Made by a program: the position numbers and the translations under genes. Under the pieces are notes generated by a model. That model did not search any database. It was not told the origin of the DNA and saw only the letters and a program-made list of their open reading frames with translations. A stretch of DNA of 64,000 nt from Thermodesulfobacteriota bacterium (GTDB lineage Bacteria > Desulfobacterota > GWC2-55-46), in NCBI GenBank assembly GCA_030583865.1, contig CP129479.1, positions 2,637,053 through 2,701,052 of the forward strand, in the 5' to 3' direction. How positions within the stretch are numbered: position 1 is the first letter of the stretch; each line of letters begins with the position of its first letter. Shown here one piece after another: positions 41,041-60,353 of the stretch.

Positions 41041-43671
41041 CTAAGCGCGCTTCTTGGCGCGGGCGTGTCCTTTTTCTATGGCGGATTTGACGAATTGCTC
41101 CTCGTCCTCCCTCGTGGACGTCTCGCCGTCGATGCGCTTCTTAAGGAGGGTCCTCAAAATCTCGCCCATGAGGGGCCCCTCGGCCACCCCGAGCCTCTTC
41201 AAATCTCCGCCCCTTAGCTCCGGCCTTATGTGCCTGAGCGTCGTTATGTAGGTTGAGAGGGCTTTGCGGGCCGGGTCTTTTCCAGCCTTTGCCATGAGGT
41301 ATAGGACGAGCTCCAGCGGAAGCTTTGAGAGGAGCTCGAATACATCGCTCGCCTTTTTCGCGGCCCCCGCCTGTATCTTCCCGAGGGCCTTGCGGGCCTC
41401 TTCCCTTCTGCCGAGGACATCGAGCCTCTTTTTCCCGGATATGCCGAGCCTCGCCATAAGGGCCGAGAGCTCCCCTTCCTTGAGCCTGTCAGTAAGGGCG
41501 AGAAAGAGGACCAGCCAGGCCTCGACCCTTTCCTTCTCGTAAAGGAGCTCGTACCAGGCAAGGGCCTCCTTTCCGCGCCTGAAGAGCCGCTCGGATTCCC
41601 TGTCCCAGACGATGGAAGGATGGATGAGCTTAAGGAGACCCAGGTCCGAAAGCCTCTTAAGCGCCTTACCGGAGGTTTCCTCCTCGAGTATGCTCTTAAG
41701 CTCCTCTGCTATCCTCGGGCCGGAGACGGTCATGAAGCCGTCGAGCCTTACCGAGTTCTTTATGAGGTTCAGCGTGTGTTTTCCGATCGTGAAATCGAAC
41801 TTCTCGGCGAACCTCACGGCGCGGAGCATCCTGGTCGAGTCCTCCACAAAGCTTAAGTTGTGGAGCACCCTGATGGTCCTCTCCTTAAGGTCCTTCTGCG
41901 CCCCGAAAAAATCTATGAGCTCGCCGAACCTGCCTGGATTGAGGGCCACTGAAAGGGTGTTCATTATGAAGTCCCTCCTGTAAAGGTCGAGCTTCAGGGA
42001 AGACTGCTCGACGGTCGGAAGCGCTCCGGGCCTCTCGTAATACTCAAGCCTCGCGGTAGCGACGTCGAGCTTGTAGCCGTCCGGGAAGACCAGCACCGCG
42101 GTCTTGAACCTGTGGTGCGCCCTCACAGATGCGCCGCGCCTCCGGGCCAGGTCTTCCGCGAATACTATGCCGTTCCCGCCCTCTACGACTATGTCTATGT
42201 CCAGGTTCTCCCTCCTCATTATGAGGTCGCGGACGAACCCCCCGACGACATAGGCCTTGAAGCCCCTCGCCTCCGCTACCTCGCCGGCCTCCTTCAATAA
42301 ATCCAGCGCCCAGGCCGGGAGCCGCTCCTTCATAAGGCCGGAGACGACGCGCACCTTCTTCGTCTCGTCGCGGGCCCCGGCGCGAAGCTCCTCCTGCAGG
42401 AGCTTAAGGAGGTCTGTCCGGGTGATTACGCCCACCACTTTTCTGTCCTTCAACACCGGCAGAAGCCTTTGCCCGTGGCCCACGACCTTCTCCCTGATGC
42501 TCTCTATCGATGCGTCGTGGCCGACCCAATCGACCTCGGTCGTCATGTAGTCCTTTACCGGCGCGGCCCCGAGGCCGTGATAAACGGCCTTGTCCACGAC
42601 CTGCCTGGTTATGACCCCCTGCACGGCCCCGTTCCTCACCACGGGCGCGGCGTTTATGCCGTATCTCCGCATGACCTCGATCGCGTCTTTAAGCGCGGAC
42701 CTCGGTGAGAGGGTTATGGGCGGGAATGACATGATGTCGCCGGCGGTCCTCGCGGGCACGATATTTGCCCGGATGGCTTCAAGGAGCATCTCCCTGGCCT
42801 GCACGAGTGTCGCCCCCTTCAAGGTGGCTGAGGCCGCGTTCGGGTGGCCGCCGCCGCCAAGAGTCTTCAAAATCCTGCCCGCGTCGGCGCGCGCATTTCT
42901 CGACCGGGCTATCACGTGGACCCTGTCTTCCGAATCGACGAGGAGGAAAAGGCATTCCATGTTCTCTATGTCACGGATCCTGTGCGCGAGCACCGCGATG
43001 TCGCCCTTGTACTTTTCGAGATAGGCCTCTGCCACTACGACCTCCACCCCGCTGAAGGAATACCTGGCCTGGGACTGCAGAAGCTCGTTAAGGAGCGACA
43101 CCTCCTCGGGGGTAAGCTCTTGCCGGAGGAGGTCCGAGACGGTCTTGAGGTCGGCCCCTGACGAGAGGAGGAAGGAGGCGGCCTCGTAATCCTCTTTAGT
43201 GGTGGATGGATAGGAAAGGAACCCCGTGTCCTCGTATATTCCGGTCATCATTATGGTGGCCTCCTCGGGGGTAGGCGTCAAGCCCCGCTCCCTGAGGACG
43301 AGCGTTAGGAGGGTGGTGTTCGACCCGAAGGGCCTCCTTACCTCGAAGCTCCCCTTGAGGTCACCCGGAGAGGCCGGGTGGTGGTCGTATATGTGCACGT
43401 CCGTTCCAGGCCTTTCCGCAGCCTGGGCAAACGGCCCTATCCTCGACGGGGAGCTCACATCCACGAGTATAAGGCGGCGGATCCCGCCTATGTCGATGTC
43501 CTTTATGCGGCTTACCTCCGCTGTGAGCGGGAGCGTATTTAGAGCGCCCCGTAGAGGCTTCTCGACCGAGCCGGGGAAAACGAGGAGCGCGTCCGGGTAT
43601 AGCCTCTTTGCCGCGACCATCGAGGCGAAGGCGTCGAAGTCGGCGTTTACGTGGGACGTTATGACTTCCAT
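41041..43671 (-). CDS. Multidomain DHH/DHHA1 phosphoesterase - CBS pair - poly(A) polymerase/CCA-adding nucleotidyltransferase
   Basis: N-terminal DHH motifs (HVNADFDAFAS, DHH at IYDHHP), GGGHPNAA DHHA1, two CBS motifs, then the GGFVRD...DIDIVV nucleotidyltransferase head and an RNA-binding region. Confidence 0.8.
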   Translation of the reverse strand: MEVITSHVNADFDAFASMVAAKRLYPDALLVFPGSVEKPLRGALNTLPLTAEVSRIKDIDIGGIRRLILVDVSSPSRIGPFAQAAERPGTDVHIYDHHPASPGDLKGSFEVRRPFGSNTTLLTLVLRERGLTPTPEEATIMMTGIYEDTGFLSYPSTTKEDYEAASFLLSSGADLKTVSDLLRQELTPEEVSLLNELLQSQARYSFSGVEVVVAEAYLEKYKGDIAVLAHRIRDIENMECLFLLVDSEDRVHVIARSRNARADAGRILKTLGGGGHPNAASATLKGATLVQAREMLLEAIRANIVPARTAGDIMSFPPITLSPRSALKDAIEVMRRYGINAAPVVRNGAVQGVITRQVVDKAVYHGLGAAPVKDYMTTEVDWVGHDASIESIREKVVGHGQRLLPVLKDRKVVGVITRTDLLKLLQEELRAGARDETKKVRVVSGLMKERLPAWALDLLKEAGEVAEARGFKAYVVGGFVRDLIMRRENLDIDIVVEGGNGIVFAEDLARRRGASVRAHHRFKTAVLVFPDGYKLDVATARLEYYERPGALPTVEQSSLKLDLYRRDFIMNTLSVALNPGRFGELIDFFGAQKDLKERTIRVLHNLSFVEDSTRMLRAVRFAEKFDFTIGKHTLNLIKNSVRLDGFMTVSGPRIAEELKSILEEETSGKALKRLSDLGLLKLIHPSIVWDRESERLFRRGKEALAWYELLYEKERVEAWLVLFLALTDRLKEGELSALMARLGISGKKRLDVLGRREEARKALGKIQAGAAKKASDVFELLSKLPLELVLYLMAKAGKDPARKALSTYITTLRHIRPELRGGDLKRLGVAEGPLMGEILRTLLKKRIDGETSTREDEEQFVKSAIEKGHARAKKRA

Positions 43672-43706
43672 AAGGGCGATATTAGCATATTTGCAGGGCG
43701 CGGGCC

Positions 43707-43740
43707 AAAAAAAGAGGGCAGGCCCCGTGGCCTGCCCTCT
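43707..43740 (-). terminator. Rho-independent terminator of the cytochrome cluster
   Basis: AGAGGGCAGGCCCCGTGGCCTGCCCTCT hairpin followed by seven U on the minus-strand transcript, 20 nt after the last cytochrome gene. Confidence 0.8.
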
Positions 43741-43760
43741 CGATGCGATCCGGACTTATA

Positions 43761-44621
43761 TTATTTCTTCTCCGTCCCCGCGTCCGCCTTTTCGCCTGCC
43801 TTCTCGCCCTCCTTACCGTCCTTTCCGGCGTCCGTCTCCTCTATGACCGGAGCCGGCTGGGAATGGCACCTGAAGCAGTCGTCTATGGGGAAGGCCACCT
43901 TGGTATGGCATACGCCGCAGTACTGCCCTGAGATTATCTTCATCATGTTCATCTCCGGGTTCCCGCCCTGCTGCTGCTTGAATATGGACTCGTGGCACGA
44001 GGTGCAGTCCAGGACCTTTGTATGCGCCTTATGCGGGTACTTGACGTCCGGCGGGCTCGGCTTGAACTTGGTCGTCGGGATTATTATGTCCATGTCGAAC
44101 TCGAAGAGCTCGTCGGTTCCGTCCGGGTTTGCCGCGGCTTTTGAGGCGCCGGTCTCCAGCGCCTTTACCCAGTCTACCTTGTTCCCGAAGTAGTCCTTGG
44201 GGTGGTCCTTCAGCCTCTCGGCCATGTTCCGATCTTGCAGAAGGCCCTGTGAATGGCACCTGTCGCATTCAAACGGCGCGAAGGCTATGTTGCCGTTATG
44301 GCAGGTCCCGCACTGCTTGCCCTCGAATATCTCGGCCATGGTTATCTCGGCCGTGCCGGCCTTGAAGCTGAAACCGAGGTCCGTATGGCAGACCTTGCAC
44401 GAGAATTTGTCCCGGTGCACCCAGTGCGGGAACACAACTGGCCGCATGTCGTTCTTGCTCGCGTTCTTGTCAAGGACCACGTTCCCGTACGTCTCAGGGT
44501 TCTTGGGCTTCCTCAGGTCGGTCTCCCATGTCACGCCGGCCTGGGCCCATTGATAGACGAAAAACCCCCCGGCGGCCAGGGCCGCCGCGGTCAAAAATCC
44601 CACTAACCTGATGCTACGCAC
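43761..44621 (-). CDS. Hexahaem c-type cytochrome (two c7/c3-like triheme domains)
   Basis: Signal/TM anchor, six CxxCH motifs (CKVCH, CGTCH, CDRCH, CTSCH, CGVCH, CFRCH) and a K/E-rich C-terminal tail. Confidence 0.8.
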   Translation of the reverse strand: MRSIRLVGFLTAAALAAGGFFVYQWAQAGVTWETDLRKPKNPETYGNVVLDKNASKNDMRPVVFPHWVHRDKFSCKVCHTDLGFSFKAGTAEITMAEIFEGKQCGTCHNGNIAFAPFECDRCHSQGLLQDRNMAERLKDHPKDYFGNKVDWVKALETGASKAAANPDGTDELFEFDMDIIIPTTKFKPSPPDVKYPHKAHTKVLDCTSCHESIFKQQQGGNPEMNMMKIISGQYCGVCHTKVAFPIDDCFRCHSQPAPVIEETDAGKDGKEGEKAGEKADAGTEKK

Positions 44622-44649
44622 TTTGGACCTCCTTTGCTCCCTTACAATA

Positions 44650-45072
44650 TCAATGACCTGTATGGCATAAGGCGCATAATTTCATGTACTCTACTCTTAA
44701 AGAGCCGGGGTGGATCGCTTTCCCGTGAGGCTCGTGGCAGGTATGGCAGACCATCTCGCCGTCGTCCGTCAGGGGAAGCCTTGCCGGAACGTGTATATTC
44801 ACTATTAGCCCCATGGGATGGCGGGTGACCGGGTGGTTGCCTATGTTCCCGTGGTGGCACTTGACGCACGTGGTAACCGGGTCCCTGGTAAGGAGCGGCG
44901 GCTGCTCGCTGTGGCACGTCGAGCAGAGGTCTTCCCTCCTGAAATCATGCGGGTTGACGATGACGGAGCGCCCCTCGCCGCCTTCCTCGGCTGCCCTGCA
45001 TTCCCTTGCAGCCAGTCCGGCGGCCGCGGCCATAAGACCCAGCGCCGCTATGGTGGTCAATATTATTTTCAT
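44650..45072 (-). CDS. Tetrahaem c-type cytochrome
   Basis: Signal peptide; CSTCH, CVKCH, CHTCH, CALCH. Confidence 0.75.
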   Translation of the reverse strand: MKIILTTIAALGLMAAAAGLAARECRAAEEGGEGRSVIVNPHDFRREDLCSTCHSEQPPLLTRDPVTTCVKCHHGNIGNHPVTRHPMGLIVNIHVPARLPLTDDGEMVCHTCHEPHGKAIHPGSLRVEYMKLCALCHTGH

Positions 45073-45108
45073 CGATCTCGAAGAGCGCCAGGCGCCTCCG
45101 CCCTGTCC

Positions 45109-47313
45109 TCAATACGAGCAATCGCTCATATTAGTGCAGTCATAATTGACTTCGGTCCCGGGTATCGCGATTTCCTCGAAAGAATCGTTACATACCTTCT
45201 CGGTAGACGGGGTTATGGTCCTGAAGGTTATCTGCCCGTCCATGGCCCCGGTGGTCCTCGGGCTCTTGTACGATTCAACGCACGCCCCGTTCATGAGCCT
45301 GTACCCGAGCGGGTCCGAGTCCTCGAGCGTGCCCGCCGGGGCGTTGCTGCCGTGAATGCCCTTTATCTGGTCCACCGTCTCGGTCGGGTCATACCACCCG
45401 CCGTGGCACGAAAGGCACAGTATCCCGAACTTGTTCGAGTTGTTGCCGGTACCGGTCCCCTGCTTGTAGAAGGGGGAATCGGTCCCGAGCCCGTCGGGCG
45501 GGTGCGAGACCCTCGAATAATTCGCATTCGGGCCGATGTAGCCCTCGTCCCCGTAGACGTCCCTCTTGTGGCAGTTATAGCAGAAATTCCTGGTGGTGCC
45601 GAAACCAGTGGTGTTCGCCTTGAGTATCCATTTCTCGTTTGAGCCGTGCACGCCCGAGGGGTCGGAGGAGACGCTCGAGCCGTGGCAGGCGGAGCATGTA
45701 ATTGTGCTGTCGTGCGTTACGTTGTAATAGCCGGTGCGCTCCCAGGTCTCCGGGAGGTCGACATACCTGAACGTGTTCGTAAGCCCGAGGCCGTTGTCCG
45801 GCCAGTTGAGGTTTGCGCGCGGCGAGCCGGGAGGCACGTTCCTGCCCTGGGCGAAGACCGGGTGAAAGCCCATGTTGTTGATGTTGAAGTCCGCCGTGGG
45901 GTCGGACTGCTCGACCTGAGACCCGTCCGCGTTGCCCGAAGGCGCATAAGGCGGCATGCTGCCGTAGGCGTAATACGAATGGCATTTTATGCAGAGATAC
46001 CCTTCCAGGTTATTGCCGCCTGGGTTGGTGGAGGTAAAATCGACCACTTCGTAGGCCGTGACCGGCTCCCCGGCAACGGGCCAGGACGACGGCTTGACTC
46101 CCCAGCTCCCCAATATGTTCGCGCCGATAATGTTCCCGTTCACGCCGCCCATGGCCTGGTTCCCTTCCATGGCGCCGTGCGGGTTGTGGCAATCGGCGCA
46201 CTCCGCATGCCTGTTGTCCCTCAGGTTTTCAGCCGATTCCCTGGCCGGGTCGCCGGCGAACTCCCTCGAAGGGACATGCAGCCCCCATGTGGCCTTGACA
46301 TCGTGCTTGTAGGGGTATTCGAATTGCGCGGTAAGGTCCTTGGAGGCCACGTTCCCGTTGTGGCAGTTGAGGCATAGCCATTCCTCGTTCTCGATATTCG
46401 AGGTGGACGGGTTCGTGCCCTTCAAAAGCGCCTTCCCGGCCGCGCCGCCGTGCGAGCGGTGGCAGGCAAGGCAGCTCTGCATCTCGGGCGTGTCGTCGCT
46501 GTAACCGGTTTCGCCCAGGTCCTCGTGCCAGGGGTTCACCCCCTCGCCGTTCCACGTGGCCGTGGACGTGCCGTGCACCGAAGGGTTTGTCTCCCAGTAT
46601 CTCTTGTCATGGCATATCTGGCAGAGGCCGCCGTTTGAGAGGCTCCCGAGGAGGAACTTGGGGAACTCGGTTCCGTGCGGGTCGTGGCAGCTCGTGCACT
46701 GCATCATCCCCGCGCCGTCGAGCTTGACTCTCTGCTGGGACTCGCTCAGCGGGTCTCTTATCTCCTCGTTCGACGGATATGAGCGGGAGTACTCGAAGGA
46801 TATGGGGTGGTCATCCATCAGGTCCGTGCCTATATGGGACGTCGATATGGAACTCAGCTTCCCTTCCTCTATGCCGGCGCCGGTCACGCTCAGCTCCCCC
46901 CCGAGCCCCTTTCCCGGAAGGTTGAGGAGCGAGCCTATTGCTATGGTGCCGTCATGGCATGCCAGGCAGAGCTTCGATGAGCCGGTCGGCTGCCCGAGCG
47001 TAGGGGAGTTGGGGTCCAGCGTGGCGGCAAGGGTCTGGCTCATGTAGACGTCGTAGGTGGCCCCGGGGTCCTGCTTGTTCCACGCCGGCCCGGAAGGGTT
47101 TGCGTTATGAGGCGTGTGGCAGAAGACGCAGACCTCGGTCGTCTCGCCGGACTTTATCTCCCCCGGGGAAAGCGAGCCGAAGTTGTGCTTCGTGCCTGTG
47201 ACCGACGCAAGCGAATATCCGGCGGCAGCGGCCAGCAGCCCGGTTACCAACGCCGCGGCTATCACGTTACGTCCCTTTTTCCCGGCCTTTCCCTTCATCG
47301 GATTTAACGACAT
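45109..47313 (-). CDS. Large secreted multihaem c-type cytochrome (11 CxxCH)
   Basis: 734 aa with a signal peptide and eleven CxxCH motifs. Several have a distal His (CHTPH, CHDPH, CHNPH), typical of paired-CxxCH multihaem domains. Confidence 0.8.
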   Translation of the reverse strand: MSLNPMKGKAGKKGRNVIAAALVTGLLAAAAGYSLASVTGTKHNFGSLSPGEIKSGETTEVCVFCHTPHNANPSGPAWNKQDPGATYDVYMSQTLAATLDPNSPTLGQPTGSSKLCLACHDGTIAIGSLLNLPGKGLGGELSVTGAGIEEGKLSSISTSHIGTDLMDDHPISFEYSRSYPSNEEIRDPLSESQQRVKLDGAGMMQCTSCHDPHGTEFPKFLLGSLSNGGLCQICHDKRYWETNPSVHGTSTATWNGEGVNPWHEDLGETGYSDDTPEMQSCLACHRSHGGAAGKALLKGTNPSTSNIENEEWLCLNCHNGNVASKDLTAQFEYPYKHDVKATWGLHVPSREFAGDPARESAENLRDNRHAECADCHNPHGAMEGNQAMGGVNGNIIGANILGSWGVKPSSWPVAGEPVTAYEVVDFTSTNPGGNNLEGYLCIKCHSYYAYGSMPPYAPSGNADGSQVEQSDPTADFNINNMGFHPVFAQGRNVPPGSPRANLNWPDNGLGLTNTFRYVDLPETWERTGYYNVTHDSTITCSACHGSSVSSDPSGVHGSNEKWILKANTTGFGTTRNFCYNCHKRDVYGDEGYIGPNANYSRVSHPPDGLGTDSPFYKQGTGTGNNSNKFGILCLSCHGGWYDPTETVDQIKGIHGSNAPAGTLEDSDPLGYRLMNGACVESYKSPRTTGAMDGQITFRTITPSTEKVCNDSFEEIAIPGTEVNYDCTNMSDCSY

Positions 47314-47341
47314 TTCCTTCCTGCGGTCGAGCCCGCTGGGT

Positions 47342-48415
47342 TCAGCCTTCCCCGAGGTAGTCGAAGACCTGCACCCTGCTATTATACGAATCCGAGACGT
47401 AGATCCTGTTGCCGTTGTCTATGAATATGCCGCTCGGAAGCCAGAAGGTCCCGGCTGATTTGCCGAGGGTGCCGAAATTCAGGAGGAACCTTCCTTGCCT
47501 GTTGAATATCTGTATGGTATCAAAGAGGGCGTCGGCCACGTAAATGTTCCCGTCCTTGTCGAGGGCGATGCCCTTGGGCCTGCCGAAATCGCCTGTTCCG
47601 TCTCCCTGCCTGCCGAAGGAGCTCAAAAACTTCCCGTTGCCGTCGAATATCTGGACCCTGAAGTTCAACGAATCAACGACGTACACGTCGCCGCCCCGGT
47701 CCAGGGCCAAATCAACGGGGTAGTTGAACTCCCCTGTTTCTTTCCCTCTCCTTCCGAAGGAGCCGACCTCCGCGCCCTTCAGGTCAAAAATACGGATGCT
47801 ATGAGACGCGGTGTCGGATATGTATACCCTTGATTCAGTCTTGCTTATCGCGATGCCCGTGGGCCTTTCGCCCGCGGCGAACGAGAAGAGGAACTTGCCC
47901 TTGGGATTGAAGACAAAGGCCTTGCGGGCCACTGAATCGGTGACATAGATATTGTTCTGGCCGTCGGTGGCCGCCGCTATCGGGGATTCGAACCGCTCTT
48001 CCCCGGGCTCTTCTATGAGTGTGTAGTTCTTCCTGGCCAGGTCGAAGACATGCACCTTCTTGAAGGCCGTGTCCGCCACTATGAGCCTTCCGGCGGAATC
48101 GACGGTTACGCCGTACGGCTTTATGAGCCGGTCCCTTTTTTCACCGAGTATGAAATCGGCAATACGCCTGAAAAACCCCGTGTTCGCGCCGATGTCCTCG
48201 GGCCTGCTGATAGTCCGTAAATAACTTACCCTTGCCGGTTCGGGAGGAGACGGCCAGATAAGGGGCGTCTGCGGCGTAAGCATGCCGCTTTTCTGCTCCG
48301 GACCGAAAGCGCAGCCCGCGAGCGTAAGCGCGGCGAACGCCAACGCCGCGGCTAGCCTGAGGGCGCCTGATGACCGGGCCCTTTCGGCCCTTCTGTCTTT
48401 CGGGGCTGCATGCAT
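47342..48415 (-). CDS. NHL-repeat beta-propeller lipoprotein
   Basis: LTLAGC lipobox and six repeats of the form ...NIYVTDS / ..YVADT.. / FNxPxGIA..., typical of NHL propellers. Confidence 0.75.
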   Translation of the reverse strand: MHAAPKDRRAERARSSGALRLAAALAFAALTLAGCAFGPEQKSGMLTPQTPLIWPSPPEPARVSYLRTISRPEDIGANTGFFRRIADFILGEKRDRLIKPYGVTVDSAGRLIVADTAFKKVHVFDLARKNYTLIEEPGEERFESPIAAATDGQNNIYVTDSVARKAFVFNPKGKFLFSFAAGERPTGIAISKTESRVYISDTASHSIRIFDLKGAEVGSFGRRGKETGEFNYPVDLALDRGGDVYVVDSLNFRVQIFDGNGKFLSSFGRQGDGTGDFGRPKGIALDKDGNIYVADALFDTIQIFNRQGRFLLNFGTLGKSAGTFWLPSGIFIDNGNRIYVSDSYNSRVQVFDYLGEG

Positions 48416-48427
48416 CAGGAAATGACC

Positions 48428-49024
48428 CTACTTCCTGTGACAGTACTGGCAGATATCAAGCCCGGCGGACCTGAACCGCCGGGTAGTGTCGGCGCCCCAG
48501 TCGGCCCTGCCCGGAAGAAGCCCTCTCTCGTGCGGGTTGTGGCAGGTTGAGCATATTATCTGGCCTGTTTTCGGGTCGAGCGGCAGGATAGTGGGTATGT
48601 CCTTCAAGGTCATCCTGATGTTGTCGTGAATGGTCTTGGGGGGCACCCTCAAATGGTTCGGCGCTTTCTTCAAAACGCTAAGCATGGCCGTCGGCTGGAC
48701 CGTGGGGTGGACAGGGACCGTATGGCAGCTCCTGCAGAGCTGGACCGGGTCCTCGAAATAGAGCTTCACGTCCTTTATGGTCAGGTTCTTGTCGATTGCC
48801 GGGACTTCCTTATGGCATACAACGCACGTGCCCCAGAGCACCTCTCCGGTCTCGCCTATCTGGTTATGCGGGTTGATTACCGTCAAGAGCGCCTCGGCCC
48901 TCGGGTAGGGGGGCGGCTCGGGCGGGGCAGGAACGGCCGGGGCCTCTGCCGACCAGGCTTCGCCGGAGAAAAACAGGGCGCCTGCTAAAAAGATGACCTT
49001 GAGGATGCCGGATTTCCTTGACAT
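48428..49024 (-). CDS. Tetrahaem c-type cytochrome
   Basis: Signal peptide; CVVCH, CRSCH, CSTCH, CQYCH. Confidence 0.75.
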   Translation of the reverse strand: MSRKSGILKVIFLAGALFFSGEAWSAEAPAVPAPPEPPPYPRAEALLTVINPHNQIGETGEVLWGTCVVCHKEVPAIDKNLTIKDVKLYFEDPVQLCRSCHTVPVHPTVQPTAMLSVLKKAPNHLRVPPKTIHDNIRMTLKDIPTILPLDPKTGQIICSTCHNPHERGLLPGRADWGADTTRRFRSAGLDICQYCHRK

Positions 49025-49072
49025 GTTGGGCTACCTTCTTTGGATGCCGGCCCTGAGGCCGTTTCGTTTAGC

Positions 49073-50209
49073 TTACTCTTGCGTAAAGGCGTAAATGGAG
49101 CCGTCCTCGGAGCCTACGTAAACGGCATTGTCCGTGACCGCCGGAGAGGACTGGATGCTCCCCTCGGTCATGTACTTCCAGACCGTCTCGCCGGTATAGA
49201 GGTCCACGGCGTAAAAGCCGCCGTCGTCACAGCCGACGTAAAGGAGCCCGGAAGCCGAGACCGCCGGGGTCGAGTTCACCTCGTCCGGGAACTTGTAGAC
49301 CGCGAGCTCCCTGCCGTCCTTCCTGTTGAAGACGGTCACGTCGCCCTTTTTGGAAGCCATGTATATCCTGTCGGCGGTGACCACAGGAGAGGCGTAGGCG
49401 AGCTTGCCGAGGTTCTTCCGCCATACGTATTTGCCGTCTTTTACATTCAGAGCGTAAAGGGTCCTGTTATACGAGGATACGTAGACTATGCCGTCCCGCA
49501 CTGCCGGGGTGGAGTATATGGCGGATTCGGTCCTCAACTGCCAGTTCCTTCCGCCGCTCTTCGCGGAGGCGGAGTATATCACCCCGTTCTTGCCCGCGTA
49601 ATATATCGCGCCGTCGGCATAGGCCGGGGAGGCGTATATGCCGCTGTATTTTTCGTAATCCGGGACGTTCATCCTCCAAACCCTCTGGCCGTCCTTTGTC
49701 CGGAGGGCGTAGAGGTAGAGGTCCTTGGAGCCGATATAGACATTGTCCTCGGCTACAACAGGCGAAGTGAGGACCGGGCCGCCGGTCTCGTGCTTCCAGA
49801 CGAGCTTGCCGGTCTCGGCCTCGAGAGCGTAGACGGAGCCGTCCCTGGAGCCGAAATAGACCCTGCCCTTGTCGACCGCCGGGGACGAGAATATCTCGCC
49901 GTTGGTCTCGAACTTCCAGACAACGGCCCCGGTCTTCTCGTCAAGGGCGTAAAGGTGCTTGTCATACGAGCCCACGAAGACCTTGCCCTTGTAGACCGCC
50001 GGAGATGAATAGACCCTCCCGCCGGTCTTGAACTTCCACTTGAGCGCCAGGGGCGGCCTCGGCGCCCTCTCGACAAAGGGGACGTTATCGGGGCTCTTCA
50101 TGAACTTCGGCCAGTCCGCGGCGGCCTGTCCGAAAAAAAGCGGCAGCGCCGCCAATGAGAGGGCCAGCGCTGCTGTTATCTTCCCTGCTGTTGACCTCGA
50201 TTGCTGCAT
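49073..50209 (-). CDS. PQQ-like (BamB-type) eight-bladed beta-propeller protein, secreted
   Basis: Signal peptide and repeated ...G.VYALD..TG..VWK... PQQ-repeat pattern (eight or more times). Confidence 0.75.
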   Translation of the reverse strand: MQQSRSTAGKITAALALSLAALPLFFGQAAADWPKFMKSPDNVPFVERAPRPPLALKWKFKTGGRVYSSPAVYKGKVFVGSYDKHLYALDEKTGAVVWKFETNGEIFSSPAVDKGRVYFGSRDGSVYALEAETGKLVWKHETGGPVLTSPVVAEDNVYIGSKDLYLYALRTKDGQRVWRMNVPDYEKYSGIYASPAYADGAIYYAGKNGVIYSASAKSGGRNWQLRTESAIYSTPAVRDGIVYVSSYNRTLYALNVKDGKYVWRKNLGKLAYASPVVTADRIYMASKKGDVTVFNRKDGRELAVYKFPDEVNSTPAVSASGLLYVGCDDGGFYAVDLYTGETVWKYMTEGSIQSSPAVTDNAVYVGSEDGSIYAFTQE

Positions 50210-50217
50210 AGTTCCTC

Positions 50218-50805
50218 TCAGACCTTCATCTTTGAGATTTTGTGGGATATGCTCTTCCGCTCCCGGGTTATCCCCTCGAGGGCCGCGGCAAGCTCCTTTG
50301 CGTCCCGGGCGGAGGCCTCAAGCCCCCTCGAAGCCTTCTCAAGGGCTTGACCGGATTTTTTCAGGGGACCGAAAAAGGACGCGAGCGAGATGGTCATCGC
50401 ATTGAACGCGTCCGCCAGGGCGCCCGGCATTTCGCTCGAGACCCGCCGCGTAAGGTCGCCACTGGAGACCCCCTTCACGGCCTCCCTGAGCTCGATGAGC
50501 GGGAGCTCTATCCGGCGGAGGACAAAGTAGCCGACTACCGCGGAGACGGACAGGACCGCTGAAACGGTTACGGCTCCGAGTTTCAGCAAGACAGGGACCG
50601 CGATTTCAGAGGTGGTCCGTATCTTTATATGGATTTTATATAACCCCTGTCCAAGTTCCCTGTCAATTAAAAAATAGGCGGCGAGGAGGTTCAGAAGGAG
50701 CCCCAGGAGGACCGTTCCGGCAAAGGCAGCCGCGAACCTCGACTGCAGCTTCCGGTCTATGAAATAGTTCCTGCGCCTCCAACTGGCATCGCGCGCGTCC
50801 CGCAT
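50218..50805 (-). CDS. HAMP-domain membrane protein without output domain
   Basis: Two TM helices, then a HAMP motif (LPLIELREAVKGVSSGDLTRRVSSEMPGALADAFNAMTISL), then ~60 aa of coiled coil. A paralogue lies at 51707-52333. Confidence 0.6.
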   Translation of the reverse strand: MRDARDASWRRRNYFIDRKLQSRFAAAFAGTVLLGLLLNLLAAYFLIDRELGQGLYKIHIKIRTTSEIAVPVLLKLGAVTVSAVLSVSAVVGYFVLRRIELPLIELREAVKGVSSGDLTRRVSSEMPGALADAFNAMTISLASFFGPLKKSGQALEKASRGLEASARDAKELAAALEGITRERKSISHKISKMKV

Positions 50806-50907
50806 CGCTCCTCCGGGCCCGGGCTCGATTCCGGGCTATATGATAGTACCCTGGAATTAAAACCCCATTAATCCAGGGTTAATTCGTCCATGCTCTCCTA
50901 AAGAGGT

Positions 50908-51720
50908 TCATTTATTGTGGCACGCAAGGCAGAGCCTGCTGTATTCGTTGCTCATGACGAGCTCGTTATGGAGCTTCGAGAACGGGTTATGGCAGCTCCC
51001 GCACCCGACGTTGCCGGCAAAGAGCTTTATCTCGGGCGGGAGCTTGTCCACCGGCTTATACGCGCCCCGGTACTTGCGCCTGGCGTCTATGTAGGATACG
51101 CCAATGGGGTGGCTGAGGCCGGAAAGCCCCGACCTGTGGAATAGCGGCCCCGCGATTTCCCTTCCTCCGACGACCGCGTCCGGCCCTGTCAGGGCGTCGT
51201 GGCAAGCCATGCACCTGAGTGATAGCTCGTCGAGCACGCCCCCGACCTCGGTTGCGACGAACTTCAACGAGGCGGAGCCCGTGACGTGGGCCGAGCCGAG
51301 CGAGAGCTTATGGAGCTCGCTCTCAAGGTCGCCGTGGCAAAGCATGCAGAAGCCGGGGCCCTCGGCCCTGGAGCGGAGGCGGAACGGCCCGAAGCCCTCC
51401 ATGTGCACCGGGTGGCAAGTAATGCAGGTCACGTCCCCCTTCCAATCGAGCGGCAGGTTCGCGGGCACCTGCATCGAGGGCCTCACGTCCACCGGATGCG
51501 ACAGCTCGAACTCGGCCTCGTGGCAGTCCACGCACATCCTCGATATGTCCAGCAGGAAGGCGCGGGGAGTGTCCCCGGGGGACGGCTCGGCAATATGGCA
51601 TTCTAGGCACCGGCCCTTGAAGTCGTGATAGCTCGTCCACTGCCGGGAGTAGAGGAGAGCCGCGGCGCCCACCGCGGCTATTGCCATTGATATGGCCAGC
51701 GCCCTCTTAATCGCCTTCAT
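50908..51720 (-). CDS. Heptahaem c-type cytochrome
   Basis: Signal peptide; CLECH, CVDCH, CITCH, CMLCH, CMACH, CGSCH, CLACH. Confidence 0.8.
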   Translation of the reverse strand: MKAIKRALAISMAIAAVGAAALLYSRQWTSYHDFKGRCLECHIAEPSPGDTPRAFLLDISRMCVDCHEAEFELSHPVDVRPSMQVPANLPLDWKGDVTCITCHPVHMEGFGPFRLRSRAEGPGFCMLCHGDLESELHKLSLGSAHVTGSASLKFVATEVGGVLDELSLRCMACHDALTGPDAVVGGREIAGPLFHRSGLSGLSHPIGVSYIDARRKYRGAYKPVDKLPPEIKLFAGNVGCGSCHNPFSKLHNELVMSNEYSRLCLACHNK

Positions 51721-52333
51721 GGGCCTTTACGCTCGAGAGGGCCAGCTGGAGCCTCTTTACGTTCTCGAATAGTTCGCGGACCGCGGACCCGGCCTCGGGC
51801 GGGAGCGGCCCTCCCTTTTCGAGGATTTTCAGAAGCTCCTGCTCGGATTTCTCAAGGGCTTCGATTGCTTCGGCTGCGGCCCTTGCCGTGTGGTTTACCG
51901 ACCGGACCATCGAGTTCAAGTCTTCCGCGAGCGCGACGAGCTGGTCGTTACCCCGAAGCCGCGTAACAACAGTAAGGTCGCCCGAGCCTATCTCTTCCAT
52001 ATTCCGGGCGAGCCTGAAGACCGGCCCCGCTATCCTGTGGGAATAGAGTATTGAGACCGCGGCAACGGCCGCGGTCGCGACCCCGAGGAGCGCTACAGTG
52101 TAAGAGGAGGCGAAGACAAGCGGCAGGGCCTTTACCTTGAGCTCGTAAAGCGTGAAGACGGCCTGGCCGTATGAGTCTCCCACGCCCCTCGAAAGGGAGA
52201 GTACTAGGAGGGCAAGGAGCCCGGCGGCCCCGGCAAGCGTCGCAAGGCACAGCTTGAGCCCGAACCTGAGCTTGAAGCCCAGCCCGAGGAGGCGCGAGGC
52301 GTCCGTTTTTTTACGGGTATCCGGAGCGGCCAT
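51707..52333 (-). CDS. HAMP-domain membrane protein without output domain (paralogue)
   Basis: Same TM-TM-HAMP-coiled-coil architecture (GPVFRLARNMEEIGSGDLTVVTRLRGNDQLVALAEDLNSMV); overlaps the downstream heptahaem cytochrome gene by 14 nt. Confidence 0.6.
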   Translation of the reverse strand: MAAPDTRKKTDASRLLGLGFKLRFGLKLCLATLAGAAGLLALLVLSLSRGVGDSYGQAVFTLYELKVKALPLVFASSYTVALLGVATAAVAAVSILYSHRIAGPVFRLARNMEEIGSGDLTVVTRLRGNDQLVALAEDLNSMVRSVNHTARAAAEAIEALEKSEQELLKILEKGGPLPPEAGSAVRELFENVKRLQLALSSVKAHEGD

Positions 52334-52668
52334 CTTTACCGGCTATAAAAGAGGATTTCAAATCGGTCCGGGAGAAAATAAACGAGGTGAGTGCTGAAAA
52401 CGCGGGGCAGGATTCACAGCCATTATATCCGAATACGGCGCGCTTGTGAAGCCCGGGAGCGCCTCCCTGCCGCCCCTTCATTGAAAATTATTGAAAAAAC
52501 CAGCCGTTATGAATATAATAAAAAGCTCTTTTCCGTCTTGCCCGCCGGAAGCTCGACTGAACGGCGGGGCAGAAGCCGCGGGCCCCCTTTCCGCGGCCCA
52601 AGTCAGGGGTGCGGCGGGAAAAGGCGGGAAGGATTTTTCCCGAACACAATCTGGGAGGATACCTAAAG

Positions 52669-53712
52669 ATGGCAAAGGTCATGGCAAAGGACGCGTTTCT
52701 CAAGGCATGCCGCAGGGAAAAGGCCGGCTACACCCCGGTGTGGCTCATGCGCCAGGCTGGCCGCTACATGAAGGAGTACATGGCCATACGGGAGAAGCAT
52801 TCGTTCCTCGAGATGTGCAGGAACCCCGAGATAGCCGCCGAGGTGACGCTCCAGCCCATAAAGGCTTTCGACCTTGACGCGGCCATAATCTTCGCGGACA
52901 TACTCCTTCCGCTCGACGGCATGGGCATAAACCTCGAGTTCGCGAAAAACGAGGGGCCCGTGATATCCAATCCCGTCCGCACGAGGAAGGACATAGACGC
53001 CGTAAGGGTCATAAACCCCGAGGAGCACGTGCCCTATCTCCTGAAGGCCATAAAACTCGTAAAAGCGGAGCTTGCCGGCAAGGTCCCGCTCATAGGTTTT
53101 TCCGGCGCGCCTTTCACGCTCGCGAGCTACATCATCGAGGGCGAGGGCTCCAAGAACTACATAAACACGAAAAAGCTCATGTACTCGGACCCCGAGGGCT
53201 GGAAGGCCCTCATGGAGAAAATATCCGACGTCATTATAGTCTACCTCGAGGCGCAGATAGAGGCCGGCGTGGACGCGGTCCAGCTATTCGACAGCTGGGT
53301 CGGGTGTCTCGGGCCGGACGACTACAAAAACTACGCCATGCCTTACAGTAAGAGAATTATCGAGACCGTGAGAAAGAAGGGCGTACCTTTCATAAACTTC
53401 AGCACCAATACCGGGACATACCTCGACACCATCGCCAAGACCGGCGGGGACGTGGTGGGCGTAGACTGGAAGGTGAGGCTCGACGAGGCCTGGAAGACCA
53501 TAGGCTATGACAAGGCCATCCAGGGGAACCTCGACCCCGTGGTCCTCTTCGGCCCTGTAAGCGAGATACGGAAGAGGGTCAAAGATATACTCGACATGGC
53601 GGGCGGAAGGCCCGGCCACATATTCAACCTCGGCCACGGCATAATACTCGGCACGCCTGTAGATAACGTCCGGGCCGTAATAGACAGCGTTCACGAGCTG
53701 AGCGCAAAGTAA
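52669..53712 (+). CDS. hemE: Uroporphyrinogen decarboxylase
   Basis: PVWLMRQAGRYMKEY signature. The start is at the internal ATG 52669, preceded by a GGGAGGA RBS. Confidence 0.9.
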   Translation: MAKVMAKDAFLKACRREKAGYTPVWLMRQAGRYMKEYMAIREKHSFLEMCRNPEIAAEVTLQPIKAFDLDAAIIFADILLPLDGMGINLEFAKNEGPVISNPVRTRKDIDAVRVINPEEHVPYLLKAIKLVKAELAGKVPLIGFSGAPFTLASYIIEGEGSKNYINTKKLMYSDPEGWKALMEKISDVIIVYLEAQIEAGVDAVQLFDSWVGCLGPDDYKNYAMPYSKRIIETVRKKGVPFINFSTNTGTYLDTIAKTGGDVVGVDWKVRLDEAWKTIGYDKAIQGNLDPVVLFGPVSEIRKRVKDILDMAGGRPGHIFNLGHGIILGTPVDNVRAVIDSVHELSAK

Positions 53713-53736
53713 AAAGGTGAGAAGGGGCGTCCTGAG

Positions 53737-59490: not shown

Positions 59491-59519
59491 TGCCTCTCTT
59501 TCAATATTTAGGGCCTCCC

Positions 59520-60272: not shown

Positions 60273-60338
60273 AATGACCTCCTCTTTCTTGAAAAGACGG
60301 AACCGGAAATCGCCCTTTTCTTCTACCCGGAGGTAATA

Positions 60339-60353
60339 GCAAAAGGAGTGCCA
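60339..60353 (-). promoter_or_regulatory. Sigma-54 (-24/-12) promoter
   Basis: The minus strand reads TGGCAC-TCCTT-TTGCT, a match to the TGGCAC-N5-TTGCW consensus, about 65 nt upstream of the ATG at 60272. Confidence 0.6.

What the first reader, a model, noticed from the sequence alone, without database searches (positions are those of the whole stretch)
43761..52333. Compact nine-gene cluster of secreted proteins: five multihaem cytochromes c (6+4+11+4+7 = 32 CxxCH), an NHL propeller, a PQQ propeller and two HAMP-only proteins
All nine genes are on the minus strand, tightly spaced or overlapping, and every product has a signal peptide, lipobox or TM anchor. The run ends in a textbook rho-independent terminator (43707-43740). 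The mix of a hexahaem c7-type cytochrome, an 11-haem paired-CxxCH cytochrome, a lipoprotein NHL beta-propeller and a BamB-like PQQ propeller resembles extracellular electron-transfer conduits of metal-reducing bacteria. However, no porin-like beta-barrel gene is present, and the two output-less HAMP proteins are not part of described Pcc/Ext/Mtr systems. This is a candidate for a novel electron-transfer or redox-sensing module.
Basis: partly seen in the sequence, partly recalled or inferred. Interest (0 to 1): 0.7.

Follow-up and report, generated by a model that had tools for sequence, protein, structure and literature searches.

The report
Porin-less undecahaem cytochrome/NHL electron-transfer cluster
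A nine-gene operon of an uncultured Thermodesulfobacteriota bacterium carries 32 haem-binding sites and is a rearranged relative of the 'Uet/OmcE-type' gene clusters thought to move electrons between cells and minerals or electrodes, but it lacks the outer-membrane channel and the filament protein those clusters normally encode.

Summary
In detail: nine co-directional genes, 32 CxxCH motifs, a promoter-like site and a strong terminator.

Most loci also carry an OmcE-like tetrahaem, a second NHL and a ~650-760-aa barrel-family protein. This layout matches the published omcE cluster of Desulfuromonadia and the uet cluster of Tenderiales.

The window's clade has a long-form undecahaem and lacks the barrel and tetrahaem in cis. 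It adds a PQQ-type propeller, two small tetrahaems, a c7-type hexahaem and a HAMP–heptahaem–HAMP triad. I found no description of the triad, yet it recurs beside canonical clusters in other lineages.

A relative keeps the barrel, tetrahaems and a prolyl isomerase at a second locus. The missing porin may therefore simply lie outside the window.

Verdict: a new variant of a known but biochemically uncharacterised kind. Its function, a haem relay from inner to outer membrane, is inferred.

The parts
52422..52450 (-). Promoter-like site (TTCACA-17-TATAAT), about 85 nt upstream of g1. It lies back to back with a promoter-like site for hemE on the + strand.
   Evidence: 11 of 12 consensus positions. 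This is a consensus match only, not evidence of function.
51707..52333 (-). g1: 208-aa membrane protein with two TM helices, a ~25-aa periplasmic loop, a cytoplasmic HAMP domain and a ~60-aa helical tail. It has no output domain.
   Evidence: Pfam HAMP 2.2e-07, 31.6 bits. Hydrophobic segments at 28-46 and 78-96. Its stop overlaps the g2 start by 14 nt. Alignment A3.
50908..51720 (-). g2: 270-aa heptahaem cytochrome c with one N-terminal TM helix or signal anchor. Its C-terminal three haem sites are OmcE-like.
50218..50805 (-). g3: 195-aa paralogue of g1 with two TM helices and a HAMP-like domain, no output domain.
   Evidence: Pfam HAMP 18.1 bits, below the cut-off of 25. Jackhmmer links it to the g1 family at 5e-61. 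Hydrophobic segments at 29-47 and 78-96.
49073..50209 (-). g4: 378-aa secreted PQQ/BamB-type beta-propeller. It has a type-I signal peptide and no lipobox.
   Evidence: PF13360 1.5e-55. TIGR03300 BamB scores 205 bits, below its cut-off of 285. Orthologues occur only in the Thermodesulfobacteriota clade L004-L009, plus a 72-aa fragment at the edge of L011.
48428..49024 (-). g5: 198-aa secreted tetrahaem cytochrome with a Pro-rich linker after the signal peptide.
   Evidence: 4 CxxCH. Paired_CXXCH 5.6e-08. No PDB relative. Related to 8-haem proteins that follow the 11-haem gene in proteobacterial loci.
47342..48415 (-). g6: 357-aa NHL six-bladed beta-propeller lipoprotein (lipobox LAGC, Ala at +2). 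It is the orthologue of the NHL gene that precedes the 11-haem gene in nearly all loci.
   Evidence: NHL 1e-35. Lipobox. 4.2e-96 to the NHL directly upstream of the 11-haem gene in Geobacteraceae locus L082, against 1.8e-48 to the other NHL there. The adjacency holds in 67 of 80 loci.
45109..47313 (-). g7: 734-aa secreted undecahaem cytochrome, the long form of the UetJ-like family.
   Evidence: 11 CxxCH, all invariant across 74 homologues together with 12 other His. AF2 pLDDT 81.5, pTM 0.82. The family has 278 clusters at 50% identity with E<=1e-30 and 2,810 with E<=1e-10.
46603..47250 (-). OmcE-fold head of g7 (residues 22-237, the first four haems). All eight haem-ligating His of OmcE are conserved: H43, H66, H69, H120, H169, H210, H213 and H235.
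44650..45072 (-). g8: 140-aa secreted tetrahaem cytochrome.
   Evidence: 4 CxxCH. Paired_CXXCH 2.1e-08. No significant PDB relative.
43761..44621 (-). g9: 286-aa hexahaem cytochrome made of two c7-type (PpcA/GSU1996-like) trihaem domains, with an acidic/Lys-rich C-terminal tail.
   Evidence: TIGR04257 1.5e-35, two stretches. 3OV0 (GSU1996) 2.3e-41 and PpcA ~1e-4.
43702..43741 (-). Intrinsic-terminator-like hairpin (13 bp, 9 G-C pairs, loop of 4) plus a T-run, 20 nt after the g9 stop.

Best explanation
The nine genes form one operon. It encodes the 'undecahaem cytochrome + NHL propeller + c7-type cytochrome' part of a Uet/OmcE-type extracellular electron-transfer system, in a lineage-specific arrangement without a barrel.

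**Shown**
- g7 is a long-form member of the widespread undecahaem family, and its first ~215 residues have the OmcE nanowire-subunit fold.
- g6 is the orthologue of the NHL lipoprotein that almost always precedes that gene.
- g9 is a double c7 domain.
- The barrel-family protein, the stand-alone OmcE-like tetrahaem and the prolyl isomerase of canonical clusters are absent from the window.

**Inferred mechanism**
- The proteins form a haem relay across the periplasm.
- The membrane-anchored heptahaem g2, held in or regulated by a complex with the two HAMP membrane proteins g1 and g3, exchanges electrons at the inner membrane.
- The soluble hexahaem g9 and the tetrahaems g5 and g8 carry them across.
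- The rod-like undecahaem g7 is positioned at the inner face of the outer membrane by lipoprotein g6, perhaps with propeller g4.
- Passage through the outer membrane, if it happens, most likely uses a UetC-like barrel and OmcE-like tetrahaem(s) encoded elsewhere in the genome, as in a relative. The OmcE-like head of g7 could couple to these.
- The direction of flow (export or uptake) cannot be told from sequence.
For: **OmcE-like head of g7**
- Sequence: E=1.1e-21.

**Family and synteny**
- A scan of GTDB species genomes confirmed 560 relatives. In the best 80 loci, an NHL gene abuts the 11-haem gene in 67, a barrel-family protein is present in 52 and a small OmcE-like tetra/pentahaem in 42.
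- The typical order is tetrahaem, NHL, (5-haem), a ~650-760-aa protein with no Pfam hit, NHL, 11-haem.

**Match to published clusters**
- The minimal omcE cluster is described as two multihaem cytochromes, two beta-propeller lipoproteins, OmcE and a large beta-barrel.
- uetA-J is described as a tetrahaem, a PPIase, a 28-strand barrel, c7 trihaems, NHL x2 and an undecahaem, followed by ccsAB.
- ccsBA-like genes follow the long-form gene in L010-L013.

**Split system in a relative**
- MAG GCA_016218105.1 has a g7 homologue 66% identical to the window's.
- At another locus it carries a c7 cytochrome, an NHL (6e-78 to g6), two OmcE-like tetrahaems, a SurA-like PPIase, a barrel-family protein (1e-32) and a TPR protein.

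**Conserved operon**
- All nine genes are syntenic in L004, L005 and L007.
- The downstream flank is conserved in L004-L009.
- Tight spacing, a promoter-like site and a terminator fit a single transcript.

**Export**
- Signals for export or membrane anchoring are present on all nine products.
Against: - **No experiments:** no biochemical or genetic work exists for any Uet, Occ or long-form protein. The published roles rest on omics and structure prediction.
- **Weak phenotypes in related systems:** deleting the D. ferrophilus NHL/cytochrome clusters did not impair Fe(III) oxide reduction. A polar-prone GSU0616 knockout, in the operon next to omcE, slightly raised metal reduction.
- **No barrel in cis:** none of the ten long-form loci (L004-L013) has a barrel within 10 kb.
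- **No OmcE-like hit from this genome:** a search with a clade-specific OmcE-like protein returned no hit from a 2,751,635-bp or 2,590,723-bp contig among the top 120. This genome may truly lack the outer-membrane module.
- **No direct Uet comparison:** sequences of the Ca. Tenderia Uet proteins could not be obtained, so they were not compared directly.
Confidence: 0.6

Rival explanations
1. A self-contained, porin-independent periplasmic haem network. The long-form undecahaem, the NHL and PQQ propellers and the small cytochromes would form a periplasm-spanning wire or electron store (capacitor). It would never cross the outer membrane, serving soluble or diffusible acceptors and donors, or buffering redox state.
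For: None of the ten long-form loci (L004-L013) carries the barrel-family gene or, with two exceptions, an OmcE-like gene within 10 kb. The exceptions are L012 and a truncated copy at the edge of L009. The window has neither gene. No OmcE-like hit from the window's 2.75-Mb contig appeared. D. ferrophilus has analogous NHL/cytochrome clusters and no recognisable porin.
Against: A relative with the same nine-gene-type cluster has the barrel/tetrahaem/PPIase module at a second locus. L009 and the P0079/P0122 contig carry OmcE-like genes on the same contig. g7 keeps an intact OmcE-type head, and in the solved cases this fold is an extracellular filament subunit.
Confidence: 0.2
2. g7 itself polymerises through its OmcE-like head, or caps or seeds an OmcE/UetA-type filament. 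It would form a decorated cytochrome filament or act as the base/tip adaptor of a nanowire.
For: The head has OmcE fold and sequence, with all four CxxCH and the four other haem-ligating His conserved. These include the His next to the mature N-terminus, 'GTKH43'. OmcE filaments need a His from the neighbouring subunit, and a cap or initiator resembling OmcE has been postulated but not found in omcE operons. In canonical clusters the 11-haem gene is always co-encoded with the tetrahaem.
Against: There is no structural or experimental evidence. The count of conserved His does not single out a spare ligand: the short form has 12 motifs and 16 other conserved His. A 500-residue extension may be sterically incompatible with OmcE-type packing. 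No tetrahaem gene lies in cis here.
Confidence: 0.12
3. Primarily a redox-sensing or signalling module. The heptahaem g2 would report periplasmic redox state to the HAMP proteins g1 and g3, which relay it to cytoplasmic partners, for example c-di-GMP signalling.
For: g1 and g3 have HAMP domains. In Bacteroidota and Calditrichota loci, a HAMP-HisKA-HATPase kinase with one CxxCH in its periplasmic loop directly follows the 11-haem gene. A dCache-HAMP-GAF-GGDEF gene is linked to long-form clusters in two phyla.
Against: g1 and g3 have no output domain and no conserved phospho-acceptor. Thirty-two haems, two propellers and a lipoprotein are far more than a sensor needs. The triad is at most a sub-module: it is present in 8 of 80 loci, whereas the NHL/11-haem pair is near-universal.
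Confidence: 0.1
4. A periplasmic respiratory enzyme complex, such as a nitrite, hydroxylamine, sulfite or tetrathionate reductase or oxidase.
Against: All these hits are far below the family cut-offs of 134-192 bits. There are no CxxCK or other catalytic-haem motifs and no CxxxCH or Cx4CH motifs. No molybdopterin, FeS or NrfD-type subunit is present. Synteny is with Uet/omcE-type clusters instead.
Confidence: 0.03

Closest known systems
uetABCDEFGHIJ (undecaheme electron transfer) cluster of 'Ca. Tenderia electrophaga' and Tenderiales. It is a proposed electron-uptake conduit known from genomics, transcriptomics and structure prediction only (bioRxiv 10.1101/2022.05.06.490989; PMC5371394; PMC10734462).
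   Same: A secreted undecahaem cytochrome with 11 CxxCH and no other domain (UetJ ~ g7). An adjacent NHL propeller (UetH/I ~ g6). c7-type trihaem-domain cytochromes (UetD/E/G ~ the two domains of g9). The long-form relatives L010-L013 are followed by ccsBA-like genes, as uet is.
   Different: The window has no tetrahaem UetA, no prolyl isomerase UetB, no 28-strand barrel UetC and no cupredoxin UetF. It adds a PQQ-type propeller, two tetrahaems, a heptahaem and two HAMP-only membrane proteins. g7 is ~150 residues longer than the common form and has lost one haem site. The host is an anaerobic Thermodesulfobacteriota lineage rather than an aerobic gammaproteobacterium. Tenderia sequences were not compared directly.
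omcE nanowire gene cluster of Desulfuromonadia: OmcE (GSU0618, PDB 7TFS) and D. soudanensis OmcE (9YUQ). The minimal cluster is two multihaem cytochromes, two beta-propeller lipoproteins, OmcE and a large beta-barrel (bioRxiv 10.1101/2025.10.22.684050).
   Same: The head of g7 has the OmcE fold and haem ligands. g6 is orthologous to the NHL upstream of the 11-haem gene in a Geobacteraceae locus with the canonical layout (L082).
   Different: No stand-alone OmcE-type subunit and no barrel. Only one NHL lipoprotein; the second propeller is PQQ-type and has no lipobox. No glycosylation genes. The OmcE module is fused to seven more haems.
osc (omcS-companion) cluster of G. sulfurreducens: OscH prolyl-isomerase chaperone, OscEFG channel-like secretion components and OscD beta-propeller-like protein. 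Source: Shen et al. 2025, Cell Chem Biol, not held; seen only as summarised in PMC13194489.
   Same: The same design logic: multihaem cytochromes co-encoded with beta-propeller proteins in a widespread 'nanowire assembly' module.
   Different: The filament subunit there is OmcS-type, not OmcE-type. No channel or PPIase genes are present here. Homology of g4 and g6 to Osc proteins was not tested because no sequences were available.
Desulfovibrio ferrophilus IS5 clusters DFE_0448-0451 and DFE_0461-0465: seven multihaem cytochromes plus two NHL propellers and no porin. They are induced by lactate starvation and proposed for electron uptake (PMC5815863; PMC9769857).
   Same: A porin-less cluster of several multihaem cytochromes in which an NHL gene sits next to a predicted extracellular cytochrome, in a sulfate-reducer-type lineage.
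   Different: Sequence homology was not tested. The haem counts differ (12- and 14-haem proteins are reported there). No HAMP proteins or PQQ propeller are reported. Deletions there did not affect Fe(III) oxide reduction.
occA-S cluster of 'Ca. Dechloromonas occultata': 19 genes, 10 cytochromes, NHL-repeat proteins and the 922-aa undecahaem OccP. It is expressed in Mn(III)-reducing enrichments (bioRxiv 10.1101/695007).
   Same: An undecahaem predicted to be extracellular plus six-bladed NHL proteins in one cytochrome-rich cluster.
   Different: Homology was not tested. The cluster is much larger and betaproteobacterial.
Porin-cytochrome conduits (MtrCAB, PioAB/MtoAB, Pcc/Ext of Geobacter).
   Different: No porin gene. 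DmsE/MtrA and GSU2203 family models score far below their cut-offs (49.8 against 192 bits; 44.9 against 325 bits). No MtrC/OmcA-type cytochrome is present.

Membership tests
Uet (undecaheme electron transfer) cluster | Secreted undecahaem cytochrome (11 CxxCH, no other domain) | tested here: met
   g7 has 11 CxxCH, a signal peptide and only generic multihaem Pfam hits. All 11 motifs are invariant in 74 homologues.
Uet (undecaheme electron transfer) cluster | NHL beta-propeller gene(s) next to the undecahaem gene | tested here: met
   g6 ends 28 nt before g7. The same adjacency holds in 67 of 80 loci.
Uet (undecaheme electron transfer) cluster | c7-type trihaem-domain periplasmic cytochromes | tested here: met
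   g9 has two TIGR04257 domains at 1.5e-35, and matches GSU1996 at 2e-41.
Uet (undecaheme electron transfer) cluster | Extracellular tetrahaem UetA (OmcE-like) in the cluster | tested here: not met
   OmcE-like queries from six loci hit only g7, and weakly g2, in the whole window. g5 and g8 have no similarity to OmcE.
Uet (undecaheme electron transfer) cluster | Large outer-membrane beta-barrel UetC | tested here: not met
   The barrel-family profile, present in 52 loci, finds nothing in the window or in L004-L013.
Uet (undecaheme electron transfer) cluster | Peptidyl-prolyl isomerase UetB and cupredoxin UetF | tested here: not met
   None of the nine products has a rotamase or cupredoxin domain.
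Uet (undecaheme electron transfer) cluster | Direct sequence similarity to the Ca. Tenderia Uet proteins | not testable with these tools
The link rests on matching architecture and on gammaproteobacterial and betaproteobacterial loci (L010-L013, L021, L051, L054).
omcE nanowire cluster | Stand-alone OmcE-type tetrahaem filament subunit (~200-300 aa) | tested here: not met
   The OmcE fold is present only as the N-terminal module of the 734-aa g7. There is no separate gene.
omcE nanowire cluster | Two beta-propeller lipoproteins | tested here: inconclusive
   g6 is an NHL lipoprotein. The second propeller, g4, is PQQ/BamB-type with a type-I signal peptide and no lipobox.
omcE nanowire cluster | Large beta-barrel protein in the cluster | tested here: not met
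Porin-cytochrome conduits (Mtr/Pcc/Ext) | Porin gene plus a DmsE/MtrA- or OmaB-type periplasmic cytochrome scoring above the family cut-off | tested here: not met
   No porin is present. TIGR03508 scores 49.8 bits against a cut-off of 192, and NF041028 scores 44.9 against 325.
D. ferrophilus DFE_0448-0451 / DFE_0461-0465 type | Several multihaem cytochromes plus NHL propeller(s), with no porin | tested here: met
   Met by architecture only, compared with the descriptions.
D. ferrophilus DFE_0448-0451 / DFE_0461-0465 type | Sequence homology to DFE_0450 or DFE_0464 | not testable with these tools
   No sequences or supplements are held.
Multihaem respiratory reductases (NrfAH, HAO/OTR, MccA) | Family model above its cut-off, or a catalytic haem motif (CxxCK and the like) | tested here: not met
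HAMP-domain signal transducers | Two TM helices followed by a HAMP domain and then an output domain (kinase, MCP or cyclase) | tested here: not met
   g1 has a HAMP domain (31.6 bits) and g3 is sub-threshold (18.1 bits). Neither has an output domain. Their tails do not align with the HisKA region of the related kinases.

The most novel reading that the evidence does not exclude
The undecahaem cytochrome that accompanies OmcE/UetA-type tetrahaems in many phyla may be the missing adaptor of cytochrome nanowires. Its OmcE-fold head would plug into, or seed, the filament. Its seven further haems would lead the electrons to the periplasmic carriers, with the NHL lipoprotein as docking platform.

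In the barrel-less long-form clades, including this window, the same protein would work as a stand-alone periplasm-spanning wire, or would polymerise on its own. It would be coupled to a previously undescribed inner-membrane complex of a heptahaem cytochrome and two output-less HAMP proteins, which either injects electrons or reports redox state to the cytoplasm.
Probability: 0.15. Interest if true: 0.8.

Novelty: new variant of a known kind. Interest (0 to 1): 0.48.

Why it matters
Cytochrome nanowires and Uet/Occ-type clusters are proposed to drive mineral respiration, corrosion, electron uptake from cathodes and interspecies electron transfer. How the filaments are anchored, fed with electrons and exported remains unknown.

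This cluster offers three testable handles:
- **OmcE-fold head.** The undecahaem protein co-encoded with OmcE-like subunits itself starts with an OmcE-fold module. This is a concrete candidate for the link between filament and periplasm, which recent work says is missing from omcE operons.
- **Natural barrel-less variants.** Two clades have the undecahaem/NHL pair but not the barrel or tetrahaem in cis. They separate the functions of the two halves of the system.
- **HAMP–heptahaem–HAMP triad.** It recurs beside canonical clusters in several distant lineages. I did not find it in any published model I could read.

The analysis also suggests that gene clusters published under different names (uet, omcE; probably also occ and DFE) are versions of one widespread system.

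Tried and rejected
1. **'2n+1 histidines' argument.** I tested whether g7 carries one spare His to cap a neighbour's open haem. I rejected this. g7 has 11 motifs plus 12 other invariant His. However, the common short form has 12 conserved motifs (11 CxxCH plus a C-terminal CxxxCH) and 16 other conserved His. The His count therefore singles out no spare ligand.
3. **g5 or g8 as the missing OmcE/UetA equivalent.** Neither has PDB or OmcE similarity.
4. **OmcE-like gene elsewhere in this genome.**
   - A search with a clade-specific OmcE-like protein (truncated by the edge of L009) returned no hit from a 2,751,635-bp contig among the top 120.
   - This is only a weak negative, because just the top 120 of 2,331 hits are listed.
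5. **RNA elements.** An Rfam scan of 43000-53000 found nothing.
6. **g1 against solved structures.** The result was uninformative.
7. **Resources that were unavailable.**
   - The AFDB50 fold search, which could have named the G. sulfurreducens orthologue, was not available.
   - Baquero 2023, Wang 2022 and Shen 2025 are not held.
   - The Deng 2018 supplements are not held.
8. **Jackhmmer with the cytochromes.** It drifts onto all CxxCH proteins, so I used only single-pass phmmer results for them.

Full report
**Observation**

The region 43761-52333 holds nine minus-strand ORFs exactly as described.
- The five cytochromes carry 7, 4, 11, 4 and 6 CxxCH motifs, 32 in 2,766 residues. All six-frame ORFs of at least 100 aa outside the cluster hold only 2 in 41,436 residues.
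- Intergenic distances run from -14 to 102 nt.
- A 13-bp G+C-rich hairpin with a T-run follows the last gene. A promoter-like site matching 11 of 12 positions lies about 85 nt upstream of the first gene.
- Every product has an N-terminal hydrophobic segment. g1 and g3 have two such segments, and g6 has a lipobox, LAGC.
- No Rfam element is present.
- The G+C content of the cluster is the same as that of its flanks.

**Gene content**

| Gene | Product | Evidence |
|---|---|---|
| g1, g3 | ~200-aa proteins: two TM helices, a ~25-residue outer loop, a HAMP domain and a ~60-residue helical tail, no output domain | g1 31.6 bits; g3 18.1 bits, sub-threshold but a clear paralogue |
| g2 | Heptahaem cytochrome with one N-terminal helix | Helix pLDDT ~95; the rest of the model is poor |
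| g4 | Secreted PQQ/BamB-type propeller | |
| g5, g8 | Small tetrahaems with no solved relatives | |
| g6 | Classical six-bladed NHL propeller lipoprotein | |
| g9 | Two c7-type trihaem domains of the GSU1996/PpcA kind | |

No protein reaches the cut-off of any respiratory-enzyme family. The NrfH, NrfB, DmsE and HmcA hits are all small fractions of their thresholds.

**The 11-haem protein g7**
- Its residues 22-237 match the OmcE nanowire subunit of G. sulfurreducens (7TFS, E=1.1e-21) and the D. soudanensis OmcE (9YUQ, E=2.4e-20).
- An AlphaFold2 model built on 74 homologues has pLDDT 81.5 and pTM 0.82.
- The four CxxCH and the four other haem-ligating His conserved among OmcE homologues all align with invariant residues of the g7 family. 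These include the His seven residues into the mature chain, 'GTKH43'.
- The remaining ~500 residues carry seven more invariant CxxCH and eight more invariant His. They have no solved relative.

**Distribution and synteny**
- The exact protein is annotated only as 'cytochrome c3 family protein' in a Thermodesulfobacteriota MAG with a 2.75-Mb contig. It recurs in three other assemblies.
- An exhaustive search finds 278 clusters at 50% identity with E<=1e-30 and 2,810 with E<=1e-10.
- A scan of GTDB species genomes confirmed 560 relatives. The lineages include Bacteroidota, Ignavibacteria, Calditrichota, Planctomycetota, Verrucomicrobiota, Acidobacteriota, Nitrospirota, Myxococcota and several proteobacterial and Thermodesulfobacteriota groups.
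- In the best 80 loci, an NHL gene abuts the 11-haem gene in 67. Most exceptions are contig ends or over-extended ORF calls.
- A barrel-family protein of ~650-760 aa with no Pfam hit is present in 52 loci. A small OmcE-like tetra- or pentahaem is present in 42.
- The typical order is tetrahaem, NHL, (5-haem), barrel-family protein, NHL, 11-haem. A Geobacteraceae MAG, L082, shows this order.
- g6 is the orthologue of the second NHL, not the first (4e-96 against 2e-48).

**Mapping to the literature**
- **uet cluster.** It also matches the uetA-J cluster of Tenderiales: tetrahaem UetA, PPIase UetB, 28-strand barrel UetC, c7 trihaems UetD/E/G, cupredoxin UetF, NHL UetH/I and undecahaem UetJ, followed by ccsAB.
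- **Related descriptions.**
  - The occ cluster of Ca. Dechloromonas occultata has an undecahaem and NHL proteins and is expressed during Mn(III) reduction.
  - The D. ferrophilus DFE clusters have NHL proteins and cytochromes, no porin, and are induced by starvation.
  - The osc cluster serves OmcS.
- **Missing comparison.** I could not compare sequences with those named proteins directly.
- **State of the evidence.** All these roles rest on omics, prediction or, for osc, genetics that I could not read. The available knock-outs of related clusters gave no loss of metal reduction.

**What is different here**
- The family splits into two forms.
  - The common short form is ~560-600 aa. It has 11 CxxCH plus a conserved C-terminal CxxxCH.
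  - The long form comprises the Thermodesulfobacteriota clade of the window (L004-L009, 743-760 aa) and a clade of Sulfurimicrobium, Sulfuricella and Polarisedimenticolaceae (L010-L013, 667-743 aa).
- None of the ten long-form loci has the barrel-family gene within 10 kb. Neither the barrel gene nor a separate OmcE-like ORF exists anywhere in the 64-kb window.
- Relative to the short form, g7 has several loop insertions and a ~100-residue Cys-containing C-terminal domain. It has lost the Cys pair of one haem site, 'PCxxCHDPHG' having become 'SRVSH604PPDG'.
- The window clade adds g4, whose only relative outside L004-L009 is a 72-aa fragment at the edge of L011. It also adds g5, g8 and the g1-g2-g3 triad.
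- All nine genes are syntenic in L004, L005 and L007. The downstream DHH-CBS-poly(A)-polymerase gene is conserved in L004-L009. The cluster is therefore an old, vertically inherited feature of the clade.

**Is the outer-membrane half elsewhere?**
- In MAG GCA_016218105.1, whose g7 homologue is 66% identical, a second locus (L084) encodes the following:
  - a c7 cytochrome;
  - an NHL (6e-78 to g6);
  - two ~296-aa OmcE-like tetrahaems;
  - a SurA-like prolyl isomerase;
  - a 638-aa barrel-family protein (1e-32);
  - a TPR protein.
- In L009 and on the contig shared by P0079 and P0122, OmcE-like genes lie on the same contig as the long-form gene.
- For the window's own genome I found no OmcE-like hit from a contig of its size among the 120 best of 2,331 hits. 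This is a weak negative, and the question stays open.

**The HAMP–heptahaem–HAMP triad**
- Short HAMP-only proteins flanking a 6-7-haem cytochrome occur in 8 of 80 loci.
  - Three are in the window's own clade.
  - Five are right beside clusters of Nitrospiraceae (L036), unclassified Deltaproteobacteria (L020) and unclassified Gammaproteobacteria/Proteobacteria (L021, L062), or of Polarisedimenticolaceae (L012).
  - All five except L012 are barrel-containing canonical clusters.
- The genes are translationally coupled.
- In Bacteroidota and Calditrichota loci, the position after the 11-haem gene is taken by a full HAMP-HisKA-HATPase kinase. Its periplasmic loop holds one CxxCH.
- The triad's function is unknown.
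  - I consider an inner-membrane anchoring or entry complex for the haem relay the most likely role.
  - Redox sensing is the alternative.
  - Neither is shown.

**Mechanism, shown and inferred**
- **Shown:** domain content, export signals, the OmcE fold of the g7 head, orthology and synteny relations, and absence of the barrel and tetrahaem in cis.
- **Inferred:**
  - The proteins form a bis-His haem relay. It would run from the inner membrane (g2 with g1/g3) through soluble carriers (g9, g5, g8) to g7, which is held at the outer membrane by lipoprotein g6, possibly with g4.
  - Any outer-membrane passage would use a barrel and tetrahaem encoded elsewhere.
  - The direction of flow is undetermined. 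Uet is proposed for uptake and OmcE for export.

**Novelty and limits**
- The kind is known, so the finding is not categorically new.
- Three things are new relative to what I could read:
  - the barrel-less long-form variant and its gene set;
  - the conserved HAMP–heptahaem–HAMP triad;
  - the explicit observation that the undecahaem protein of these clusters begins with an OmcE-fold module, whereas a recent paper states that no OmcE-like initiator or tip candidate is encoded in omcE operons.
- Limits: there is no access to the rest of the genome, to the named reference sequences or to model coordinates, and no expression data.

Noticed in passing
window 56405-58612 (+): A dCache_3-HAMP-GAF-GGDEF diguanylate cyclase lies 4 kb upstream of the cluster. 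It is 35% identical over its full length (E=8e-144) to genes 7-8 kb downstream of the long-form undecahaem gene in Sulfurimicrobium and Sulfuricella (L010, L011, L013). This points to a possible conserved c-di-GMP regulatory link across phyla.
   Followed up: partly
window 52609-56129 (+): The haem-biosynthesis genes hemE-hemH-hemY are transcribed divergently from the 32-haem operon, with back-to-back promoter-like sites at 52422-52519. The same adjacency occurs in L007. In addition, hemE and hemY follow the 11-haem gene in a Verrucomicrobiota locus, L023.
   Followed up: partly
loci L014-L083 (58 short-form homologues), e.g. L037:10013-11695: The common ~560-aa 'undecahaem' family has a twelfth conserved haem-type motif, CxxxCH at the C-terminus (conserved in at least 98%), and 16 conserved non-motif His. 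These proteins may really bind 12 haems.
   Followed up: partly
L010:12002-14028, L011, L012, L013: ResB/CcsB-like (417 aa) and CcsA-like (266 aa, WGWD motif) cytochrome-maturation genes directly follow the long-form 11-haem gene in the proteobacterial clade, as ccsAB follow uetJ in Tenderia. A ~305-aa polytopic membrane protein, possibly a b-type cytochrome, also recurs there.
   Followed up: partly
L015:11717-13231, L028:11641-13089, L057:3860-5350: In Calditrichota and Bacteroidota (including the isolate Carboxylicivirga marina), a sensor histidine kinase directly follows the 11-haem gene. It has one CxxCH in its periplasmic loop, so it is a candidate c-haem redox sensor.
   Followed up: partly
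L084:7591-20786 (MAG GCA_016218105.1): A second-locus module sits in a relative: c7 cytochrome, NHL, two OmcE-like tetrahaems, SurA-like PPIase, a monohaem cytochrome, two FGE-sulfatase-domain proteins, a spermine-synthase-like protein, a barrel-family protein and a TPR protein. The FGE-sulfatase and spermine-synthase genes inside it are unexplained.
   Followed up: partly
L009:1-3984 (-): In the MAG OFTM298 relative, the HAMP-heptahaem-HAMP triad is absent. A divergently oriented c7 + NHL + OmcE-like module takes its place. Three OmcE-like paralogues lie on that 37-kb contig (P0147, P0156, P0209).
   Followed up: no
window 50218-50805 (g3 N-terminus) and homologues: The second HAMP paralogue has a conserved N-terminal 'RRR-x-(F/Y)-(F/I)-(I/V)-(D/N)-(R/K)' motif before TM1. 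It vaguely resembles a twin-arginine signal, but it is spaced ~10 residues from the hydrophobic segment. This is probably just positive-inside residues.
   Followed up: no
window 1-43671 and 58771-64000: The rest of the window is ordinary housekeeping: UvrA, Mfd, phosphoglucomutase, a MiaB-like radical-SAM protein, cysteine desulfurase-type aminotransferase, MutL, a PLD-family protein, TrpRS, ScpA/B, a sigma-54 response regulator and a GT4 glycosyltransferase. None of the ORFs scanned is a secretion-system, porin or further cytochrome gene.
   Followed up: partly
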